From the IMG/VR virus record IMGVR_UViG_2537562173_000005: a stretch of 11,084 bases of DNA; one strand, given 5' to 3'. The notes under the pieces were generated by a model. It ran no database searches. It was not told the DNA's origin and saw nothing but the letters and a program-made list of their open reading frames with translations. A program made the translations under genes and the position numbers. This stretch comes from a virus (Duplodnaviria; Heunggongvirae; Uroviricota; Caudoviricetes). The stretch's first letter is position 1. Every line of letters begins with the position of its first letter. Positions 1 to 11,084 of the stretch are shown in pieces.

Positions 1-369
1 CTTATTAATATTCTGGATAAGTTCTCCACCTGGTATGACACGAATAGCGTGACGCTGGGCGGTGTCAAAATTCCGCACCTTTTCCCCGGTGATGATCTGA
101 AACTTCAGACCGCGCAGGATTCAGACAATGGATTTTCGGCGCTTGAACAGGCGCTGCTGCGGTATATCGCCGCCGGCCNNNNNTCTGAGCCGGGTTCGTA
201 AGCTGTGCTGACTGCGGGATCAGGTAAGGCCGAACCGGTCTCTGCATCCACAACCGCCCTGTTTGAACATTTCATGGCGAATCATTCACCGGCAGCGGTG
301 CGGGGTGGCGTGTCACAGACGTCAGCAGACGGTGATGCGGACGTGAAAATGCTCATGGCCATGTCATGA
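1..369 (+). CDS. 3' end of an upstream head gene, probably the scaffold/prohead protease (lambda C/Nu3 position); interrupted by an N gap at 179-183
   Basis: Frame 1 is open from 1 to the N run, and frame 1 is open again from 202 to the TGA at 367-369, 36 nt upstream of the D start. Position immediately before D matches lambda Nu3/C. Frame continuity across the gap is unknown and I see no clear sequence match. Confidence 0.3.
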
Positions 370-3050: not shown

Positions 3051-3803
3051 ATGGCAACACCAAATCCCCTTGAGCCGGTAAAAGGTGCCGGTACCACTCT
3101 GTGGGTTTACAACGGCAAGGGTGATGCTTATGCAAACCCGTTGTCAGACGATGACTGGCAGCGACTGGCTAAGGTGAAGGATCTGACGCCGGGCGAGATG
3201 ACGGCAGAATCCTACGATGATAACTACCTGGATGATGAAGACGCGGACTGGACCGCGACCGGGCAGGGGCAGAAATCTGCAGGTGATACCAGTTTTACGC
3301 TGGCCTGGAAACCGGGAGAGGAAGGCCAGAAAGGGCTTATAGGCTGGTTTGAAAGCGGCGATGTCCGGGCCTATAAAATCCGTTTTCCGAATGGCACGGT
3401 GGATGTGTTTCGTGGCTGGGTCAGCAGTATCGGTAAGGCCGTGACGGCGAAAGAAGTGATCACCCGCACGGTGAAAGTCACTAACGTGGGTAAACCTTCT
3501 GTAGCGGAAGAACGCAGCAAAATTACGCCGGTCAGTGCGATTAAGGTGACGCCGACATCCGGTACGGTGGCAAAAGGGAAAACAACCACCCTGACGGTTT
3601 CTTTTGAGCCGGAAAGTGCAACCGACAAGACGTTCAGAGCGGTTCCCGCCGATCCGTCGAAAGCCACCATTAGTGTGAAAGATATGACAATTACGGTAAA
3701 CGGCGTGGCGACAGGTAAGGTGCAGATCCCTGTGGTGAGCGGAAATGGTCAGTTCGCCGCAGTGGCTGAAGTCACCGTTACTGAAGCGGGCGCTGCAGGG
3801 TAA
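3051..3803 (+). CDS. V: major tail tube protein with C-terminal Ig-like domain (lambda gpV family)
   Basis: 250 aa; [70 protein letters not shown] and [42 protein letters not shown] match lambda gpV. GGAGG-like ribosome-binding site upstream. Confidence 0.95.
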
Positions 3804-4248: not shown

Positions 4249-4688
4249 ACTTTGCCCTCAGACTGGCGCGTGAGATGGGGAGACCCGACTGGCGCGCCAT
4301 GCTTGCCGGGATGACATCCACCGAATATGCCGACTGGCACCGTTTTTACCGCACGCATTATTTTCAGGATACCCAGCTGGATATGCATTTTTCCGGGCTG
4401 ACGTACGCTGTACTCAGCCTGTTTTTTTGCGATCCGGATATGCATCCCTCTGATTTCAGTCTGCTTGTCCCCCGGCATGAGGAAGAGCAGGTGGAGAGGC
4501 CGGATGAGGACAAAATGCTGATGCAGAAAGCGGCAGGACTTGCCGGAGGCGTCCGGTTCGGTGGGGACGGAGGGCGCGATATTTTATCGTCTGCGGATGT
4601 GGCGGATGTCATGGTGGATGATGCCGCATTAATGATGGCTTCAGCGGGGATTCCGGGAGGTGTGAGATATGTCCCAGCCGGTTGGTGA
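3817..4688 (+). CDS. T: tail assembly chaperone G-T fusion made by programmed -1 ribosomal frameshift at 4224-4230
   Basis: After the slippery heptamer the -1 frame reads GKVFDGELNFALRLAREMGRPDWRAMLAGM...GVRYVPAGW, matching lambda gpT (VFDGEL.FAL.LAREMGRPDWRAMLAGM.STEYADWHRFY). The T frame has no start codon or ribosome-binding site of its own until 4275. Confidence 0.8.
4224..4230 (+). other. programmed -1 frameshift slippery heptamer G GGA AAG (G to T frame)
   Basis: GGGAAAG sits near the 3' end of G, with GGA and AAG as zero-frame codons. This is the same heptamer and the same relative position as the known lambda G-T frameshift site. Confidence 0.75.
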
Positions 4689-6828
4689 TCTTGTTATTGA
4701 CCTGAGTCTGGATGCTGTCCGTTTCGATGAGCAGATGAGCCGGGTAAGGCGTCATTTTTCAGGTCTGGATACCGACGCCAGAAAAACCGCCAGTGCTGTT
4801 GAACAGGGCCTGAGCCGCCAGGCGCTGGCTGCACAAAAAGCCGGGATTTCCGTCGGGCAGTATAAAGCGGCCATGCGAACCCTGCCCGCACAGTTTACGG
4901 ATATCGCCACGCAGCTTGCCGGTGGTCAGAATCCCTGGTTGATCCTGCTGCAACAGGGCGGTCAGGTGAAGGACTCCTTCGGCGGGATGATCCCCATGTT
5001 CAGGGGGCTTGCCGGTGCGATCACCCTGCCGATGGTCGGGGTCACCTCGCTGGCGGTGGCGACAGGTGCGCTGGCGTACGCCTGGTACCAGGGCGACGCC
5101 ACGCTTTCAGAATTTAATAAAACGCTGGTCCTTTCCGGCAATCAGGCCGGACTGACTGCCGATCGTATGCTGACGCTCTCAAGAGCCGGGCAGGCAGCAG
5201 GGCTGACGTTTAACCAGGCGAGAGAGTCACTGGCAGCCCTGGTGAATGCCGGTGTGCGTGGTGGTGAACAGTTTGATGCCATCAACCAGAGTGTCGCGCG
5301 TTTTGCGTCTGCATCCGGTGTGGAGGTGGATAAAGTCGCTGAAGCCTTCGGGAAGCTGACCACTGACCCGACGTCGGGACTGATGGCGATGGCGCGCCAG
5401 TTCCGTAACGTGACGGCAGAGCAGATTGCGTATGTTGCACAGCTGCAGCGTTCCGGAGACGAGGCCGGGGCATTGCAGGCGGCGAACGATATCGCCACGA
5501 AAGGCTTTGATGAGCAGACCCGTCGCCTGAAAGAAAACATGGGAACACTGGAGACCTGGGCGGATAAAACAGGGAAGGCATTCAAATCGATGTGGGATGC
5601 CATTCTGGATATCGGTCGTCCGGAATCCTCAGCGGATATGCTCGCCAGTGCGCAGAAGGCATTTGATGAGGCGGATAAAAAATGGCAGTGGTACCAGAGC
5701 CGGAGCCAGCGCCGGGGAAAGACCTCCTCTTTTCGTGCGAACCTTCAGGGGGCATGGGATGACCGGGAAAATGCCCGTCTGGGTCTGGCAGCGGCCACGC
5801 TGCAGTCGGATATGGAAAAAGCCGGTGAACTGGCGGCAAGGGACAGGGCTGAGCGTGAGTCGTCACAGCTGAAGTATACCGGAGAGGCGCAGAAGGCGTA
5901 TGAGCGCCTGCAGACGCCGCTGGATAAATATACCGCCCGTCAGAAAGAGCTGAATAAGGCCCTGAAAGACGGAAAAATCCTGCAGGCGGATTACAACACG
6001 CTGATGGCGTCGGCAAAAAAGGATTATGAATCGACGCTGAAAAAGCCGTCAGGTGTGAAGGTGTCTGCCGGTGAGCGCCAGGAAGACCGGGCGCATGCAG
6101 CCCTGCTGGCGCTTGAAACCGAGCTCAGGACGCTGGAAAAACACAGCGGTATGAATGAGAAAATCAGCCAGCAGCGCCGGGATTTATGGGAATCTGAAAG
6201 TCAGTATGTGGTCCTGAAAGAGGCCGCCACGAAACGGCAGTTATCTGAGCAGGAAAAATCCCTGCTGGCTCATGAGAAAGAGACGCTGGAGTACAAACGC
6301 CAGCTGGCTGAGCTGGGAGACAAGATTGAACACCAGAAGCGGCTGAATGAGCTGGCACAGCAGGCGGCGCGGTTTGAACAGCAGCAAAGCGCGAAGCAGG
6401 CGGCAATCAGCGCAAAAGCCCGCGGCCTCACCGACCGTCAGGCGCAGCGGGAGTCGGAAGAGCAGCGCCTTCGTGAGGTGTACGGTGATAATCCGGCTGC
6501 GCTGGCGAAGGCCACATCGGCACTGAAGAACACCTGGTCTGCGGAGGAGCAGCTTCGTGGAAGCTGGATGGCCGGGATGAAGTCCGGCTGGGGAGAGTGG
6601 GCGGAAAGTGCGACGGACAGTTTTTCGCAGGTTAAAAGTGTGGCCACGCAGACCTTTGACGGTATTGCACAGAATATGGCGGCGATGCTGACCGGCAGCG
6701 AACAGAACTGGCGGGGATTCACCCGTTCCGTGCTGTCCATGATGACAGAAATTCTGCTTAAGCAGGCAATGGTGGGGATTGTCGGGAGTATCGGCAGCGC
6801 CATTGGCGGGGGGGGCGCCTCCGCCTGA
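4669..6828 (+). CDS. H: tail tape measure protein (lambda gpH family), N-terminal 719 aa; reading frame ends prematurely at a G homopolymer
   Basis: Long Ala/Gln/Glu-rich ORF; N-terminus PVGDLV.DLSLDA.RFDEQM.RVRRHFSG and many internal blocks match lambda gpH. It ends ...IGSAIGGGGASA* at TGA 6826-6828, directly after a G8 run. Confidence 0.9.
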   Translation: MSQPVGDLVIDLSLDAVRFDEQMSRVRRHFSGLDTDARKTASAVEQGLSRQALAAQKAGISVGQYKAAMRTLPAQFTDIATQLAGGQNPWLILLQQGGQVKDSFGGMIPMFRGLAGAITLPMVGVTSLAVATGALAYAWYQGDATLSEFNKTLVLSGNQAGLTADRMLTLSRAGQAAGLTFNQARESLAALVNAGVRGGEQFDAINQSVARFASASGVEVDKVAEAFGKLTTDPTSGLMAMARQFRNVTAEQIAYVAQLQRSGDEAGALQAANDIATKGFDEQTRRLKENMGTLETWADKTGKAFKSMWDAILDIGRPESSADMLASAQKAFDEADKKWQWYQSRSQRRGKTSSFRANLQGAWDDRENARLGLAAATLQSDMEKAGELAARDRAERESSQLKYTGEAQKAYERLQTPLDKYTARQKELNKALKDGKILQADYNTLMASAKKDYESTLKKPSGVKVSAGERQEDRAHAALLALETELRTLEKHSGMNEKISQQRRDLWESESQYVVLKEAATKRQLSEQEKSLLAHEKETLEYKRQLAELGDKIEHQKRLNELAQQAARFEQQQSAKQAAISAKARGLTDRQAQRESEEQRLREVYGDNPAALAKATSALKNTWSAEEQLRGSWMAGMKSGWGEWAESATDSFSQVKSVATQTFDGIAQNMAAMLTGSEQNWRGFTRSVLSMMTEILLKQAMVGIVGSIGSAIGGGGASA

Positions 6829-7234
6829 GGGGGGTACAGCCATTCAGGCCGCCGCGGCGAAATTCCATTTTGCAACCGGAGGATTTACGGGAACCGGCGG
6901 CAAATATGAGCCAGCGGGGATTGTTCACCGTGGTGAATTTGTCTTCACAAAGGAGGCAACCAGCCGGATTGGCGTGGGGAATCTCTATCGGCTGATGCGC
7001 GGCTATGCCACCGGTGGTTATGTCGGTACACCGGGCAGTCTGGCTGACAGCCGGTCGCAGGCGTCCGGGACGTTTGAGCAGAATAACCATGTGGTGATTA
7101 ACAACGACGGCACGAACGGGCAGATAGGTCCGGCTGCTCTGAAGGCGGTGTATGACATGGCCCGCAAGGGTGCCCGTGATGAAATTCAGACACAGATGCG
7201 TGATGGTGGACTGTTCTCCGGAGGTGGACGATGA
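6779..7234 (+). CDS. H: C-terminal part of tape measure protein H in the +1 frame (frameshifted continuation)
   Basis: From about 6830, frame 2 reads GGTAIQAAAAKFHFATGGFTGTGGKYEPAGIVHRGEFVFTKEATSRIGVGNLYRLMRGYATGGYVGTPGS...RDGGLFSGGGR, matching the lambda gpH C-terminus. The ATG at 6779 is probably not a real start. Confidence 0.8.
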   Translation: MSGVSAAPLAGGAPPPEGGTAIQAAAAKFHFATGGFTGTGGKYEPAGIVHRGEFVFTKEATSRIGVGNLYRLMRGYATGGYVGTPGSLADSRSQASGTFEQNNHVVINNDGTNGQIGPAALKAVYDMARKGARDEIQTQMRDGGLFSGGGR

Positions 7235-8262: not shown

Positions 8263-9006
8263 ATGACAGAGACAGAATCAGCGATTCTGGCGCACGCCCG
8301 GCGATGTGCGCCAGCGGAGTCGTGCGGCTTCGTGGTAAGCACGCCGGAGGGGGAAAGATATTTCCCCTGCGTGAATATCTCCGGTGAGCCGGAGGCGTAT
8401 TTCCGGATGGCTCCGGAGGACTGGCTGCAGGCAGAGATGCAGGGTGAGATTGTGGCGCTGGTCCACAGTCATCCCGGTGGTCTGCCCTGGCTGAGTGAGG
8501 CCGACCGGCGGCTGCAGGTGCAGAGCGATTTGCCGTGGTGGCTGGTCTGCCGGGGGGCGATTCACAAGTTCCGCTGTGTGCCGCATCTCACCGGGCGGCG
8601 CTTTGAGTACGGGGTGACAGACTGTTACACACTGTTCCGGGATGCTTACCATCTGGCGGGGATTGAGATGCCGGATTTTCATCGCGGGGATGACTGGTGG
8701 CGTCACGGTCAGAATCTCTATCTTGACAATATGGAGGCTACTGGTTTTTACCGTGTCGCACTGACAGAGGCGCAGCCGGGCGATGTGCTGCTGTGCTGTT
8801 TTGGTTCATCGGTGCCGAATCACGCCGCCATTTACTGCGGCGACGGTGAGCTGCTGCACCATATTCCTGAACAACTGAGTAAACGAGAGAGGTATACCGA
8901 CAAATGGCAGCGACGCACACACTCCCTCTGGCGTCACCGGGAATGGCACGCATCTGCCTTTACGGGGATTTGCAACGATTTGGCCGCCGCATCGACCTTC
9001 GTGTGA
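8263..9006 (+). CDS. K: tail tip assembly protein (lambda gpK family) with MPN/JAMM-like and NlpC/P60-like regions
   Basis: MTETESAILAHARRCAPAESCGFVVSTPEGERYFPCVNISGEPEAYFRM matches the lambda gpK N-terminus. HSHPGG...SEAD fits a JAMM-type motif and DCYTLF...H fits an NlpC/P60-type Cys/His pattern. The ORF track starts at an in-frame ATG at 8221 that overlaps L; the ATG at 8263, just after the L stop, is more likely. Confidence 0.88.
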   Translation: MTETESAILAHARRCAPAESCGFVVSTPEGERYFPCVNISGEPEAYFRMAPEDWLQAEMQGEIVALVHSHPGGLPWLSEADRRLQVQSDLPWWLVCRGAIHKFRCVPHLTGRRFEYGVTDCYTLFRDAYHLAGIEMPDFHRGDDWWRHGQNLYLDNMEATGFYRVALTEAQPGDVLLCCFGSSVPNHAAIYCGDGELLHHIPEQLSKRERYTDKWQRRTHSLWRHREWHASAFTGICNDLAAASTFV

Positions 9007-9545
9007 AAACGGGGGCTGAAGCCATCCGGGCACTGGCCACACAGCTCCCGGCGTTTCGTCAGAAACTGAGCGATGGCTGGTATCAGGTACGGATTGCCGG
9101 GCGGGATGCAGGAGAAACCGAATTATCATCCCGTCTTAATGAGCCGCTGGCAAATGGTGCCGTGATCCACATCGTGCCGCGTCTTGCGGGAGCAAAAAGT
9201 GGCGGTGTGTTTCAGGCGGTGCTGGGTGCGGCGTTGATTGCTACGGCAATCTGGATGCCGGGGATCAGTATCGCTTTCAGTGACATTCTCTTTTCAATGG
9301 GTGCGGCGATGACGCTTGGTGGTGTGGCGCAGATGCTGGCACCGAAAGCCAGAACTCCCCGTACACAGACAACGGATAACGGCAAACAGAACACCTATTT
9401 CTCCTCACTGGATAACATGGTTGCCCAGGGCAATGTTCTGCCGGTTCTGTACGGTGAAATGCGCGTGGGGTCACGTGTGGCATCTCAGGAGATCAGCACG
9501 GCAGATGAAGGGGATGGTGGTCAGGTTGTGGTAATTGGGCGGTAA
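8904..9545 (+). CDS. I: tail tip assembly protein (lambda gpI family)
   Basis: 213 aa. The N-terminal ~65 aa (MAATHTLPLASPGMARICLYGDLQRFGRRIDLRVKTGAEAIRALATQLPAFRQKLSDGWYQVRIAGRD) and the C-terminus (VLGGVAQMLAPKARTPR.QTTDNGKQNTYFSSLDNMVAQGNVLPVLYGEMRVGSRV.SQEISTADEGDGGQVVVIGR) are essentially identical to lambda gpI. GAGAGG ribosome-binding site upstream; overlaps the K 3' end in another frame, as in lambda. Confidence 0.93.
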   Translation: MAATHTLPLASPGMARICLYGDLQRFGRRIDLRVKTGAEAIRALATQLPAFRQKLSDGWYQVRIAGRDAGETELSSRLNEPLANGAVIHIVPRLAGAKSGGVFQAVLGAALIATAIWMPGISIAFSDILFSMGAAMTLGGVAQMLAPKARTPRTQTTDNGKQNTYFSSLDNMVAQGNVLPVLYGEMRVGSRVASQEISTADEGDGGQVVVIGR

Positions 9546-9551
9546 TATTAT

Positions 9552-9580
9552 TTTACTCATGTTCTAACTAATTTAATATT
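9552..9580 (+). promoter_or_regulatory. candidate sigma70-type promoter for the moron ORF
   Basis: TTTACT (9552-9557), a 17-nt spacer, then TAATAT (9575-9580), in an AT-rich block about 40 nt upstream of the lipoprotein ATG. Consensus match is only moderate, and GATAAT at 9594-9599 is an alternative -10. Sequence-only prediction. Confidence 0.25.
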
Positions 9581-9618
9581 TATATCGAACACTGATAATT
9601 ATTCTATTGGTTAGCTAT

Positions 9619-9957
9619 ATGAACAAAACGATTTTATTCTGCACGATTATTGCCTTAACAGGATGTAAATCTTTGGATTACGTAAAATCCGGAAAACCTG
9701 TAATGGAAGGTAATTCATTAAAAAATATTGATGAATTGTCAGGCTGCATATCCAGACAATGGGCTGGTAATGGAACACCTATAACATCCCTTCCTATTGA
9801 GAATGGGGTAAGCCTTTTAGTTCCACAGGCTATGGGGGGATATGATGTTGTGCTTGATATCAAAAAAGCAGGAAATGGCAGTAGTTTTACTCTTTATGAA
9901 CGTGTACCAGCATTAACGCCAAAAATTTTTGCTGATAGTGTTAATGCATGTAAATAA
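9619..9957 (+). CDS. predicted lipoprotein encoded by a moron inserted between tail genes I and J
   Basis: 112-aa ORF from ATG 9619. N-terminus MNKTILFCTIIALTGC is a classic type II signal peptide with lipobox L-T-G-C. The ORF and its flanks are visibly AT-rich compared with the GC-rich phage genes. The six-frame track starts at TTG 9607; the ATG is more plausible. The ribosome-binding site is weak. Confidence 0.7.
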   Translation: MNKTILFCTIIALTGCKSLDYVKSGKPVMEGNSLKNIDELSGCISRQWAGNGTPITSLPIENGVSLLVPQAMGGYDVVLDIKKAGNGSSFTLYERVPALTPKIFADSVNACK

Positions 9958-9981
9958 TAGTTAATCCTGTCGTAACTCATG

Positions 9982-10009
9982 AGCCGCCTTTTGGGCGGCT
10001 TTGTTGTTT
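9982..10009 (+). terminator. rho-independent terminator downstream of the moron ORF
   Basis: AGCCGCC (9982-9988), loop TTTTG, GGCGGCT (9994-10000) form a perfect 7-bp GC-rich stem, followed by the T-rich tract TTGTTGTTT (10001-10009), about 25 nt after the ORF stop. Confidence 0.65.
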
Positions 10010-10023
10010 ATGGAGTGTGAGGA

Positions 10024-11084
10024 ATGGGTAAAGGAAGCAGTAAGGGGCATACCCCGCGCGAAGCGAGGGACAACCTGAAGTCCACGCAGCTGCTGAGTGT
10101 GATCGATGCCATCAGCGAAGGGCCGGGTGAAGGGCCGGCCCCCCGGACCTCAACNNNNNCGGGCCGGTGAGCAGGAGCAGACACCGCCGGAGGGATTTGA
10201 ATCCTCCGGCTCCGAGACGGTGCTGGGTACGGAAGTGAAATATGACACGCCGATCACCCGGACCATCACGTCGGCAAACATCGACCGTCTGCGCTTTACC
10301 TTCGGTGTGCAGGCACTGGTGGAAACCACCTCAAAGGGGGACAGGAATCCATCGGAAGTCCGCCTGCTGGTTCAGATCNNNNNATTCTGCAGGTGCCGTC
10401 GAACTATAACCCGCAGACGCGGCAATACAGCGGTATCTGGGACGGAACGTTTAAGCCAGCATACAGCAACAACATGGCCTGGTGTCTGTGGGATATGCTG
10501 ACCCATCCGCGCTACGGCATGGGGAAACGTCTTGGTGCGGCAGATGTGGATAAATGGGCGCTGTATGTCATCGGCCAGAATTGCGACCAGTCGGTGCCGG
10601 ATGGCTTTGGTGGCACGGAGCCGCGCATCACCTGTAATGCCTACCTGACCACACAGCGCAAGGCGTGGGATGTTCTCAGTGATTTCTGCTCGGCGATGCG
10701 CTGTATGCCGGTATGGAACGGGCAGACGCTGACATTCGTGCAGGACCGACCGTCGGATAAGGTGTGGACCTATAACCGCAGTAATGTGGTGATGCCGGAT
10801 GATGGTGCGCCGTTCCGCTACAGCTTCAGCGCCCTGAAAGACCGCCATAATGCTGTTGAGGTGAACTGGATTGACCCGGATAACGGCTGGGAGACGGCGA
10901 CAGAGCTTGTGGAGGACACGCAGGCCATTGCCCGTTACGGTCGTAACGTCACGAAGATGGATGCCTTTGGCTGTACCAGCCGGGGGCAGGCACACCGCGC
11001 CGGGCTGTGGCTGATTAAAACGGAACTGCTGGAGACGCAGACCGTGGATTTCAGCGTCGGCGCAGAAGGGCTTCGCCATGTACC
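10024..11084 (+). CDS. J: tail tip / central tail fibre protein (lambda gpJ family), 5' partial, with two internal N gaps
   Basis: Starts MGKGSSKGHTPREA.DNLKSTQLLSVIDAISEGP, and later AGEQEQTPPEGFESSGSETVLGTEVKYDTPITRTITSANIDRLRFTFGVQALVETTSKGDRNPSEVRLLVQI and ILQVPSNYNPQTRQYSGIWDGTFKPAYSNNMAWCLWDMLTHPRYGMGKRLGAADVDKWALYVIGQ, all essentially identical to lambda gpJ. GGAG/GAGG ribosome-binding site upstream. The gene runs past the window end; N runs at 10155-10159 and 10379-10383 break the apparent frame. Confidence 0.92.

What the first reader, a model, noticed from the sequence alone, without database searches (positions are those of the whole stretch)
9546..10023. AT-rich moron between tail genes I and J encoding an uncharacterised lipoprotein with its own promoter-like region and terminator
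In phage lambda, I is followed after a short spacer by J. Here about 480 bp lie between the I stop (9545) and the J start (10024). The insert is conspicuously AT-rich (roughly one-third G+C by eye, against clearly GC-rich phage genes either side). It carries a single 112-aa ORF with a textbook lipoprotein signal peptide (MNKTILFCTIIALTGC, Cys at the lipobox +1 position), an upstream AT-rich promoter-like stretch, and a clean hairpin plus T-tract terminator before J. That is the signature of a lysogenic-conversion moron. I do not recognise the mature ~97-aa protein as Lom, Bor, Cor or any characterised family. Because it sits next to the receptor-binding protein J, one inference is that it is a surface-exposed or periplasmic factor that modifies or blocks a phage receptor (superinfection exclusion, as Cor and Llp do) or otherwise alters the envelope of the lysogen.
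Basis: partly seen in the sequence, partly recalled or inferred. Interest (0 to 1): 0.8.

Follow-up and report, generated by a model that had tools for sequence, protein, structure and literature searches.

The report
Uncharacterised lipoprotein cargo gene in prophage tail
A 430-base low-GC insertion between two tail genes of a lambda-like E. coli prophage carries a real, conserved gene for a small outer-membrane lipoprotein.

Summary
The physical observation holds. About 430 bp of low-GC DNA (0.34-0.40, against 0.55-0.62 in the flanks) lies between the I stop (9545) and the J start (10024). It carries one 112-aa ORF (9619-9957) with a canonical lipobox (LTG|C) and Lys at +2.

Two attributions fail:
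- No sigma-70 match above chance lies upstream.
- The hairpin plus T-tract is the ancestral lambda I-J spacer, not cargo.

The gene is real. It shows 10 synonymous against 6 non-synonymous polymorphic sites. One identical protein (WP_001332187.1) occurs in UTI89, O104:H4 and CE10. The insert is present in 338 of 5,426 complete E. coli genomes.

It belongs to PHROG 914 ("unknown function"), with at least 125 clusters at 50% identity. Nearly all are lipoproteins of about 112 aa with three invariant Cys. phiKO2 Gp19, annotated "putative moron", is a member. There is no match in Pfam, PADLOC or PDB sequences. The model shows a small alpha+beta fold, weakly Flpp3-like.

Relatives occupy other tail-module slots (K|I, and T|H, the slot of HK97 gene 15). 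Identical copies sit beside three different J C-terminal domains, so a Cor/Llp-style blocker matched to J's receptor is disfavoured.

My best guess, at low confidence, is a receptor-independent exclusion factor acting in the envelope. It is a new member of a known kind, of moderate interest.

The parts
8904..9545 (+). Tail assembly gene I, the left flank of the insertion (context only).
   Evidence: ORF 8904..9545. 100% identical to the UTI89 'tail assembly protein' region.
9546..9975 (+). The inserted low-GC cargo segment (moron), about 430 bp. The right edge is approximate, within about 15 nt.
   Evidence: Alignment with the insert-free mEp460 and lambda junctions. GC profile. Present in 337-338 of 5,426 E. 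coli genomes.
9546..9618 (+). AT-rich 73-nt leader upstream of the ORF. It is a candidate promoter region only and is unproven. The Shine-Dalgarno sequence is weak (TTGGTTAGCTAT before the ATG).
   Evidence: No + strand match of at least 9 of 12. Best matches are 8 of 12: TTTACT-16-TAATAT and TTAATA-18-AATTAT.
9619..9957 (+). Lipoprotein ORF of 112 aa plus stop, identical to WP_001332187.1. The mature form (Cys16-Lys112) is 97 aa, 10.3 kDa.
   Evidence: Translation. phrog_914 E 7.3e-33 over the full length. Polymorphism of 10 synonymous against 6 non-synonymous sites. Same protein in strains with 97.7-100% DNA identity. Mass and pI.
9619..9666 (+). Signal peptide (residues 1-15) and the lipobox L-T-G-C, with the acylated Cys16 codon at 9664-9666. 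Lys at +2 means no inner-membrane retention signal.
   Evidence: Sequence. Cys16 is invariant in 58 diverse family members. Nearly all of the 121 family representatives listed have a lipobox, mostly near residues 14-20, and none has Asp at +2.
9745..9951 (+). Span between the codons of Cys43 (9745-9747) and Cys111 (9949-9951). These are the two other invariant cysteines, and I infer they form a periplasmic disulfide linking helix 37-50 to the C-terminal helix 103-111.
   Evidence: Invariant columns C43 and C111. Helix positions in the AF2 model. The disulfide itself is an inference.
9981..10009 (+). GC-rich hairpin plus T-tract. It is ancestral I-J spacer sequence shared with lambda and mEp460, not part of the cargo. 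It could still end a transcript that starts in the insert.
   Evidence: Terminator scan. Folding energy -21 kcal/mol, z -2.8. Homologous hairpins in mEp460 and lambda.
10024..10154 (+). Start of central tail fibre gene J, the right flank. It is interrupted by a scaffold gap (N5 at 10155-10159).
   Evidence: The first 300 aa of J in related loci are 98-99% identical to lambda J.

Best explanation
**Identity (high confidence, about 0.9)**
This is a horizontally acquired cargo gene (a moron in Hendrix's sense), dropped into the I|J junction of a lambda-like prophage. It encodes a member of PHROG 914.

**Inferred processing**
The precursor is probably exported and lipidated at Cys16. Because +2 is Lys, it should be sorted by Lol to the inner leaflet of the outer membrane. 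There, a 97-aa alpha+beta domain hangs in the periplasm on a short linker (KSLDYVKSGKP). A Cys43-Cys111 disulfide probably staples the domain.

**Mechanism (inferred, low confidence)**
The protein is an envelope-acting exclusion factor that protects the lysogen against incoming phage. It would act at a step that does not depend on which receptor J's C-terminus recognises. One example is interference from the periplasmic side with tail-tip penetration or DNA entry. This is analogous in logic to HK97 gp15, not to receptor masking by Cor or Llp.

**Expression**
The gene lies co-oriented inside the late operon. It would therefore also be made late in lytic growth. Expression from the repressed prophage is assumed, not shown.

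The confidence value given (0.35) refers to the mechanism, not to the identity.
For: **It is an insertion.**

**It is a real, selected gene.** phrog_914 E 7e-33. At least 125 family clusters at 50% identity, almost all 105-125 aa with a lipobox and three Cys. C16, C43 and C111 are invariant. Polymorphism is 10 synonymous against 6 non-synonymous sites. The protein is identical at 97.7% DNA identity.

**It has a confident compact fold.** pLDDT 83.6, about 90 over the mature part.

**It behaves as mobile cargo in tail-module slots.**
- I|J in the window and in O104:H4 and CE10.
- K|I in Fraca, phiKO2 and L066/L074/L075.
- Between G/T and the tape measure in L067-L072. This is the slot of HK97 gene 15, a prophage-expressed exclusion protein that does not block receptors (PMC3594210).
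- Distant members lie on the opposite strand in phage early or head regions. This argues for autonomous expression there.

**It is found in prophages and temperate phages.** Family members turn up in prophages and in five isolated phages: Fraca, LMessi, phiKO2, OS31 and phiAH14a. phiKO2 is a known prophage. That the other four are temperate is my reading and was not checked. No known virulent phage (for example T1- or T5-like) appeared among the hits.

**It is decoupled from J's receptor-binding end.**

**There is precedent.** Small phage lipoproteins in structural modules do exclude phages (Lpp010/Lpp021, PMC11893012; Cor and Llp).
Against: - No experiment, and no homology to any protein of known function.
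- No promoter above chance, and a weak ribosome-binding site in this copy. Expression in lysogens is therefore unproven.
- Decoupling from J argues against one exclusion model. It does not positively support exclusion.
- An identical protein across phylogroups and hosts fits a host-benefit role equally well.
Confidence: 0.35

Rival explanations
1. A Cor/Llp-type receptor blocker matched to the phage's own receptor. The lipoprotein would bind the outer-membrane protein recognised by this prophage's J and inactivate it. That would exclude homologous phages and protect progeny from debris.
For: Small outer-membrane lipoproteins with disulfides do this: Llp/FhuA and Cor (PMC9586334 listed). mEpimmI Lpp010 and Lpp021 track LamB- and OmpA-using phages. 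The gene lies in the tail module.
Against: - Identical lipoprotein sits beside three different J C-terminal classes.
- The UTI89-type J C-terminus occurs in VT1-Sakai/PPompW phages, and no phage record carries the insert.
- The gene adjoins J's conserved N-terminus, not its receptor-binding end.
- Homologues sit at K|I, T|H and non-tail positions.
- There is no sequence or fold similarity to Cor or Llp.
- Similarity to Lpp010/021 is limited to the signal peptide.
Confidence: 0.1
2. A host-fitness or virulence conversion factor unrelated to phage. It would be an outer-membrane lipoprotein that alters envelope properties such as serum resistance, stress tolerance or host interaction, as lambda Bor/Iss does.
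For: Many carriers are extraintestinal pathogens: UTI89, S88, APEC O1, IHE3034, CE10 and APEC O78. The best structural neighbour, Flpp3, is titled 'F. tularensis Virulence Determinant' in its PDB entry. Conservation is independent of the phage's receptor specificity.
Against: It also occurs in O104:H4 and in isolates from pig, water, seawater and bat. Homologues occur in Klebsiella, Enterobacter, Kluyvera, Jejubacter and many non-enteric lineages. There is no similarity to Bor/Iss. The pathogen bias may simply reflect the content of the database.
Confidence: 0.2
3. A lytic-cycle accessory expressed only as part of the late operon. It might modify the outer membrane during virion production to limit re-adsorption of progeny to debris or vesicles, or to tune lysis. 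It would not be expressed in lysogens.
For: In all enterobacterial tail-module copies it is co-oriented with the late genes. No promoter above chance lies upstream here. The downstream hairpin belongs to the native junction.
Against: It is dispensable: about 96% of lambda-type junctions lack it. No known virulent phage (for example T1- or T5-like) was among the hits. Distant members lie on the opposite strand among early or head genes. Low GC and a slot shared with HK97 gene 15 fit a classical moron.
Confidence: 0.15
4. A neutral passenger or decaying remnant with no current function.
For: 3 of 59 IMG/VR alleles are frameshifted (L062-L064). This copy has a weak ribosome-binding site.
Against: Purifying selection is evident: 10 synonymous against 6 non-synonymous sites, and an identical protein at 97.7% DNA identity. 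Three cysteines are invariant across at least 58 diverse members. The family spans many lineages.
Confidence: 0.05

Closest known systems
Klebsiella phage phiKO2 Gp19 (YP_006599.1) and PHROG 914
   Same: Same protein family: both hit phrog_914 over the full length. Pairwise identity is 26%, E 1e-7. Both are lipoprotein precursors of about 111-112 aa lying in a tail-module junction. Gp19 is followed by a hairpin annotated as a putative terminator and is annotated 'putative moron gene product'.
   Different: Gp19 sits between the K-like and I-like genes, not between I and J. It is only 26% identical. Neither protein has a known function.
HK97 gp15 (the first described moron; a superinfection-exclusion protein)
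   Same: Extra low-GC gene inside the tail operon. Homologues of the window protein occupy exactly the gp15 slot, between the tail chaperone and the tape measure. gp15's exclusion does not block receptors, which fits the decoupling from J seen here.
   Different: gp15 is a YebO-like inner-membrane protein, not a lipoprotein, and there is no sequence relationship. Prophage expression and exclusion are shown for gp15 and untested here.
Cor (phi80/N15/T1) and Llp (T5) receptor-blocking lipoproteins
   Same: Small phage-encoded outer-membrane lipoproteins with Cys pairs, encoded in or near tail and receptor-binding modules.
   Different: The window protein does not match Cor's PHROG 1119. Fraca's homologue touches it only through the signal peptide (E 0.15). 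No Llp or FhuA-Llp chain appears in the sequence search or in the listed fold-search hits. The mature domain is larger (97 aa). It is not linked to the receptor-binding domain.
mEpimmI Lpp021 / Lpp010 exclusion lipoproteins (PMC11893012)
   Same: Lipoproteins encoded within the structural gene cluster of temperate coliphages. They have been shown experimentally to exclude phages.
   Different: They are 72-82 aa, lie downstream of J on the opposite strand, and have unrelated mature sequences. They track receptor type (OmpA, LamB).
Francisella Flpp3 (DUF3568; PDB 6pny, 2mu4, 9nlt)
   Different: 6-9% identity. There is no sequence-profile match to any PDB chain or to Pfam. The fold class is generic: KA1, DUF302 and BamC-N score almost as well. 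Flpp3's function is unknown as far as I know; this was not checked here.
Lambda Bor / Iss
   Same: Prophage-encoded lipoprotein of about 100 aa that converts the lysogen.
   Different: No sequence similarity (no Pfam hit at E <= 10). From my own background knowledge, bor lies elsewhere in lambda, next to the lysis genes.

Membership tests
Bacterial lipoprotein precursors (SPase II substrates) | Positively charged n-region, hydrophobic h-region, and a lipobox [LVI][ASTVI][GAS]C about 15-25 residues from the start. | tested here: met
   MNK-TILFCTIIA-LTG|C, Cys16. Cys16 is invariant in the family. Nearly all of the 121 representatives listed have a lipobox.
Bacterial lipoprotein precursors (SPase II substrates) | Actual diacylglyceryl modification and LspA cleavage, and outer-membrane sorting. 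| not testable with these tools
   Needs globomycin sensitivity, palmitate labelling and membrane fractionation. Lys at +2 predicts Lol export (inference).
Moron (Juhala/Hendrix definition, as summarised in PMC3594210) | Extra DNA between genes that are adjacent in related phages. | tested here: met
   Lambda and mEp460 have a 60-nt I-J spacer, the window has 478 nt. About 350 of 8,687 junctions carry the insert.
Moron (Juhala/Hendrix definition, as summarised in PMC3594210) | Base composition different from the surrounding genes. | tested here: met
   ORF GC 0.36 against 0.58/0.59 in the flanks. The same holds for enterobacterial homologues (0.41-0.46 against about 0.45-0.56).
Moron (Juhala/Hendrix definition, as summarised in PMC3594210) | Own promoter. 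| tested here: inconclusive
   No + strand site of at least 9 of 12. Best is 8 of 12 in AT-rich DNA. A consensus scan can neither prove nor exclude a promoter.
Moron (Juhala/Hendrix definition, as summarised in PMC3594210) | Own terminator. | tested here: not met
   The hairpin and T-tract at 9981-10009 are homologous to the insert-free lambda and mEp460 spacer. They may be co-opted. Homologues in other slots are each followed by a hairpin and T-run.
Moron (Juhala/Hendrix definition, as summarised in PMC3594210) | Expressed from the repressed prophage. | not testable with these tools
   No expression data were found for this gene.
PHROG 914 (phage protein family, unknown function) | Full-length match to the family HMM. 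| tested here: met
   E 7.3e-33, residues 1-112 on profile positions 1-118 of 118. phiKO2 Gp19, Fraca and six distant members match the same HMM.
Cor superinfection-exclusion lipoproteins (PHROG 1119) | Sequence match to the family profile beyond the signal peptide. | tested here: not met
   The window protein has no hit at E <= 1. Fraca's homologue hits only through residues 1-29, E 0.15.
T5 Llp-type FhuA blockers | Sequence or fold similarity to Llp. | tested here: not met
Cor/Llp-like systems (functional class) | Exclusion gene co-inherited with the receptor-binding domain it matches. | tested here: not met
   Three J C-terminal classes lie beside 99-100% identical lipoprotein. The UTI89-type J C-terminus occurs in VT1-Sakai/PPompW phages, and no phage record carries the insert.
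Bor/Iss, TraT, Lom and other known conversion envelope proteins | Match to the Pfam family. | tested here: not met
   0 Pfam families at E <= 10. 0 relevant families in 58 members.
Known anti-phage defence proteins (PADLOC-DB 2.0) | Match to any defence-system HMM. | tested here: not met
   0 families at E <= 10.
DUF3568 / Flpp3 | Sequence-profile membership. | tested here: not met

The most novel reading that the evidence does not exclude
PHROG 914 could be a widespread and so far unrecognised class of prophage exclusion factors. These would be disulfide-stapled, Flpp3-like lipoproteins anchored to the outer membrane. From the periplasmic side they would stop incoming siphophage tails from completing envelope penetration or DNA delivery, whichever surface receptor the phage uses. 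That would explain two things: why the gene hops between tail-operon junctions, including the HK97 gp15 slot, and why it stays constant while J's receptor-binding domain is swapped.
Probability: 0.25. Interest if true: 0.6.

Novelty: new member of a known kind. Interest (0 to 1): 0.35.

Why it matters
About 6% of complete E. coli genomes carry this exact gene, including reference ExPEC/APEC strains and the O104:H4 outbreak lineage. Relatives are spread through prophages of many Proteobacteria. Yet the family has no Pfam entry, no solved structure and no assigned function.

If it proves to be an exclusion or envelope-conversion factor, it would add a new protein family to the small set of characterised tail-operon morons. 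It would also be relevant to phage-therapy host range in ExPEC.

On present evidence it is a well-defined but ordinary kind of object: a moron of unknown function. Its family was already flagged as such in the phiKO2 annotation.

Tried and rejected
**Searches that found nothing**
- Pfam, NCBIfam, PADLOC and PDB-sequence searches gave no informative hit.
- The Rfam scan of 9300-10200 gave only a sub-threshold GcvB hit (19.6 bits against a 42-bit gathering score), taken as chance.
- P0041 and P0188 gave nothing in the phage collection.

**Homology ideas rejected**
- The mEpimmI exclusion lipoproteins Lpp010/Lpp021 looked promising. They are unrelated beyond the signal peptide.
- The 'lipoprotein' defence gene of Vassallo et al. 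2022 has no PADLOC match to this protein, so I take it not to be the same protein.
- The Tai tail-assembly-interference systems are described as interfering with tail assembly, which I take to be cytoplasmic, and are encoded elsewhere in the genome. I rejected them for a protein with an export signal.
- 'Prophage lipoprotein' in the APEC vesicle proteomics paper is Bor.

**Tools or sources that were unavailable or failed**
- The AFDB50 fold library was unavailable.
The scan with A2 returned only one Kluyvera locus.
- The second word-indexed protein search added only a few new proteins.
- Casjens 2004 (phiKO2) and Cumby 2012 (gp15) are not held.
- No paper mentions WP_001332187.
- No expression data for this gene were found in the UTI89 or LF82 literature sampled.

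- One search was a wasted alignment.
Full report
**1. What is in the sequence**

Gene I ends at 9545 and J starts at 10024. The 478 nt between them hold one sizeable + strand ORF, from ATG 9619 to the stop at 9955-9957. It encodes 112 aa: MNKTILFCTIIALTGCKSLDYVKSGKPVMEGNSLKNIDELSGCISRQWAGNGTPITSLPIENGVSLLVPQAMGGYDVVLDIKKAGNGSSFTLYERVPALTPKIFADSVNACK.

GC falls to 0.335-0.405 across 9500-9999, against 0.55-0.62 on either side. The ORF is 0.36, against 0.58/0.59 for the 1-kb flanks.

The N-terminus has a textbook lipoprotein signal: a Lys n-region, a hydrophobic core, the lipobox L-T-G-C16, and Lys at +2. The mature product would be 97 aa, 10.3 kDa, pI 7.9.

A 9-bp hairpin at 9981-10001 is followed by TGTTGTTTAT. 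It folds at -21 kcal/mol, z = -2.8.

**2.

- *The hairpin is not cargo.* The insert-free I-J spacers of mEp460 and lambda read ...GAAACCGCCT(C/G)CGGGCGGTTTTGTC(G/A)TTTATGGAGCGTGAGGA-ATG. This is homologous, arm for arm, to window 9981-10023. The hairpin and T-tract therefore belong to the ancestral junction. The insertion is about 9546-9975, roughly 430 bp.
- *No promoter is demonstrable.* The consensus scan finds nothing on the + strand upstream, and its total count equals the shuffled expectation. My own scan of the 160 nt upstream gives at best 8 of 12 matches, which is unremarkable in AT-rich DNA. The Shine-Dalgarno sequence of this copy is poor.
- Rfam finds nothing above threshold.

**3. 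It is a true insertion, and a common one**

A query made of the two flanks joined together finds 8,687 lambda-type I-J junctions in 4,297 of 5,426 complete E. coli genomes. Nearly all have the short spacer.

The insert itself is present at about 350 places in 337-338 genomes, at 95-100% identity. No record in the phage collection contains it: 107 records match the flanks only.

Carriers include UTI89, S88, APEC O1, IHE3034, NU14 and the type strain ATCC 11775. They also include O104:H4, O7:K1 CE10, APEC O78, and isolates from pig, dog, water and bat. In UTI89, O104:H4 and CE10 the gene lies in the same I|J slot. RefSeq calls it 'hypothetical protein' WP_001332187.1.

**4. It is a real gene under selection**

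Among 59 IMG/VR copies I found 10 synonymous and 6 non-synonymous polymorphic sites. The non-synonymous changes are mostly conservative. Three alleles are frameshifted.

The CE10 insert differs at 2.3% of its 430 bp, yet its ORF encodes the same protein accession.

**5. The family**

- The protein matches PHROG 914 ('unknown function') over its full length, E 7e-33.
- An exhaustive HMMER search with a profile of close relatives finds 125 clusters (at 50% identity) with E <= 1e-3. Almost all are 105-125 aa. Nearly all have a lipobox, mostly near residues 14-20, and most have exactly three cysteines. None has Asp at +2.
- In a 58-sequence alignment the only invariant columns are C16, C43 and C111. 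P27, W48 and G63 are nearly invariant.
- There is no match in Pfam, NCBIfam, PADLOC or PDB sequences.
- Database names are 'hypothetical protein', 'Lipoprotein' or 'Phage protein'.
- The earliest annotated member I found is phiKO2 Gp19. It lies between the K-like and I-like tail genes and is labelled 'putative moron gene product; similar to Xanthomonas gene XCC2962', with a putative terminator after it. It matches the same PHROG and aligns to the window protein at 26% identity, E 1e-7.
- Other isolated phages with members are Fraca, LMessi, Serratia OS31 and Pseudomonas phiAH14a. phiKO2 is a known prophage; that the others are temperate is my reading and was not checked. No known virulent phage (for example T1- or T5-like) was among the hits.

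**6. Structure**

AlphaFold2 with a 12-sequence alignment gives pLDDT 83.6 and pTM 0.75. Confidence is about 90 across the mature domain. The topology is beta-alpha-beta4-alpha.

The two non-lipid invariant cysteines lie in helix 37-50 and in the C-terminal helix 103-111. I infer a stapling disulfide, consistent with a periplasmic location.

**7. Genomic behaviour: mobile cargo, not a partner of J**

Homologues at 48-59% identity sit in other junctions of the tail operon:
- between K and I in L066, L074, L075 and Fraca;
- inside a 4.8-kb K-I island in L065;
- between the G/T chaperone genes and the tape measure in L067-L072.

The last of these is the slot of HK97 gene 15, the archetypal moron. 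Its product is a prophage-expressed exclusion protein that does not block receptors (PMC3594210).

In these enterobacterial tail-module copies the gene has lower GC than at least one flank. Most (L002, L066, L067/L072, L074, L075) are followed by a hairpin plus T-run.

More distant members lie on the opposite strand in a phage replication region (L078), next to a head module in a small capsid-encoding element (L080), and in a genomic island (L076).

**8.

Among the IMG/VR loci, lipoprotein copies that are 99-100% identical lie next to J proteins whose first 750 residues are mostly 95-100% identical. The last 120 residues of those J proteins fall into three classes: 96-98%, 58-60% and 42-44% identity to the UTI89 J. 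All three classes are only 36-43% identical to lambda's LamB-binding end.

The UTI89-type C-terminus also occurs, at 97% identity, in VT1-Sakai and the PPompW phages. No record in the phage collection carries the insert.

The lipoprotein is therefore not co-inherited with a receptor-binding domain. That co-inheritance is the hallmark of Cor/Llp-type systems and of the mEpimmI Lpp proteins. Physically, the gene abuts J's conserved N-terminus, 3.3 kb from the variable end.

**9. Mechanism**

*Shown:* insertion, composition, coding constraint, the lipoprotein signature, invariant cysteines, family breadth, slot mobility, and decoupling from J's C-terminus.

*Inferred:* Sec export, lipidation and Lol sorting to the outer membrane; the disulfide; periplasmic exposure; and late-operon read-through expression.

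*Guessed:* the biological role.

I commit, at about 0.35, to an envelope-level exclusion factor acting at a receptor-independent step. That step could be tail-tip penetration or DNA entry, blocked from the periplasmic face of the outer membrane. The reasons are the distribution in prophages and temperate phages, the shared slot with gp15, the precedent of small phage lipoproteins that exclude phages, and constancy across receptor-domain swaps.

The rivals are:
- a host-fitness factor of the Bor type (0.2);
- a late-expressed lytic accessory (0.15);
- a neutral passenger (0.05).

The remaining probability is reserved for something not considered.

**10. Novelty and score**

The object is a moron-borne lipoprotein of unknown function. 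Its family is already catalogued (PHROG 914), and a member is flagged as a putative moron in the phiKO2 record. I file this as a new member of a known kind.

It is a clean, testable candidate, present in many clinically important strains.

Noticed in passing
window 179-183, 10155-10159, 10379-10383: Three NNNNN runs are scaffold gaps. Relative to UTI89 they hide about 1.8 kb (portal and protease region), about 90 bp and about 300 bp (both inside J). J's broken reading frame in the window is therefore an assembly artefact, not evidence of a pseudogene.
   Followed up: yes
window ~1438-1441: About 515 bp present in UTI89 (the 3' end of the major capsid gene and the start of FI) are missing here, with no N marker. 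This is either a real deletion, giving a defective prophage, or a mis-join.
   Followed up: partly
window 6812-6832: A cluster of small indels (net -8 nt against UTI89) splits the tape-measure gene into ORFs 4669..6828 and 6779..7234. It is either a frameshifted tape measure or a local assembly error.
   Followed up: partly
L083 (VT1-Sakai) 3191-3430: The same I|J junction in VT1-Sakai holds a different, unrelated 240-bp filler that contains a short ORF of about 39 aa by eye. The junction appears to be a recurrent insertion site.
   Followed up: no
L006-L064, J gene 3' ends: Otherwise near-identical prophages carry at least three different J C-terminal (receptor-binding) domains. All are only 36-43% identical to lambda's. 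This is modular swapping of host specificity within one prophage lineage.
   Followed up: partly
L065 2064-6910: A 4.8-kb island of several ORFs, on both strands, lies between the K-like and I-like tail genes and includes the lipoprotein homologue. It is a multi-gene cargo cluster inside a tail operon.
   Followed up: no
L002 (phage Fraca) 3725-3994: An 89-aa ORF (phrog_2320, unknown function) lies immediately upstream of Fraca's lipoprotein homologue in the K|I slot. It may be a second cargo gene.
   Followed up: no
L062, L063, L064: Three of 59 IMG/VR copies of the lipoprotein gene are frameshifted. L062 and L063 diverge from ORF nucleotide 221, which corresponds to the G run at about 9836-9841 in the window.
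   Followed up: partly
window 9954-9925 (- strand) and 9784-10009 (+ strand): A promoter-like site with 9 of 12 matches lies on the minus strand inside the 3' end of the ORF. There is also a sub-threshold Rfam GcvB match (19.6 bits against a 42-bit gathering score). I take both as chance.
   Followed up: partly
L001 (UTI89) 20529-21197 and 22112-22237: The UTI89 prophage ends beside a truncated ompW fragment, next to yciE/yciF/trpA. It carries a SAM-dependent methyltransferase on the opposite strand after the tail-fibre genes. The carrier prophages examined (UTI89, O104:H4, CE10) also carry a Lom homologue just after J.
   Followed up: no
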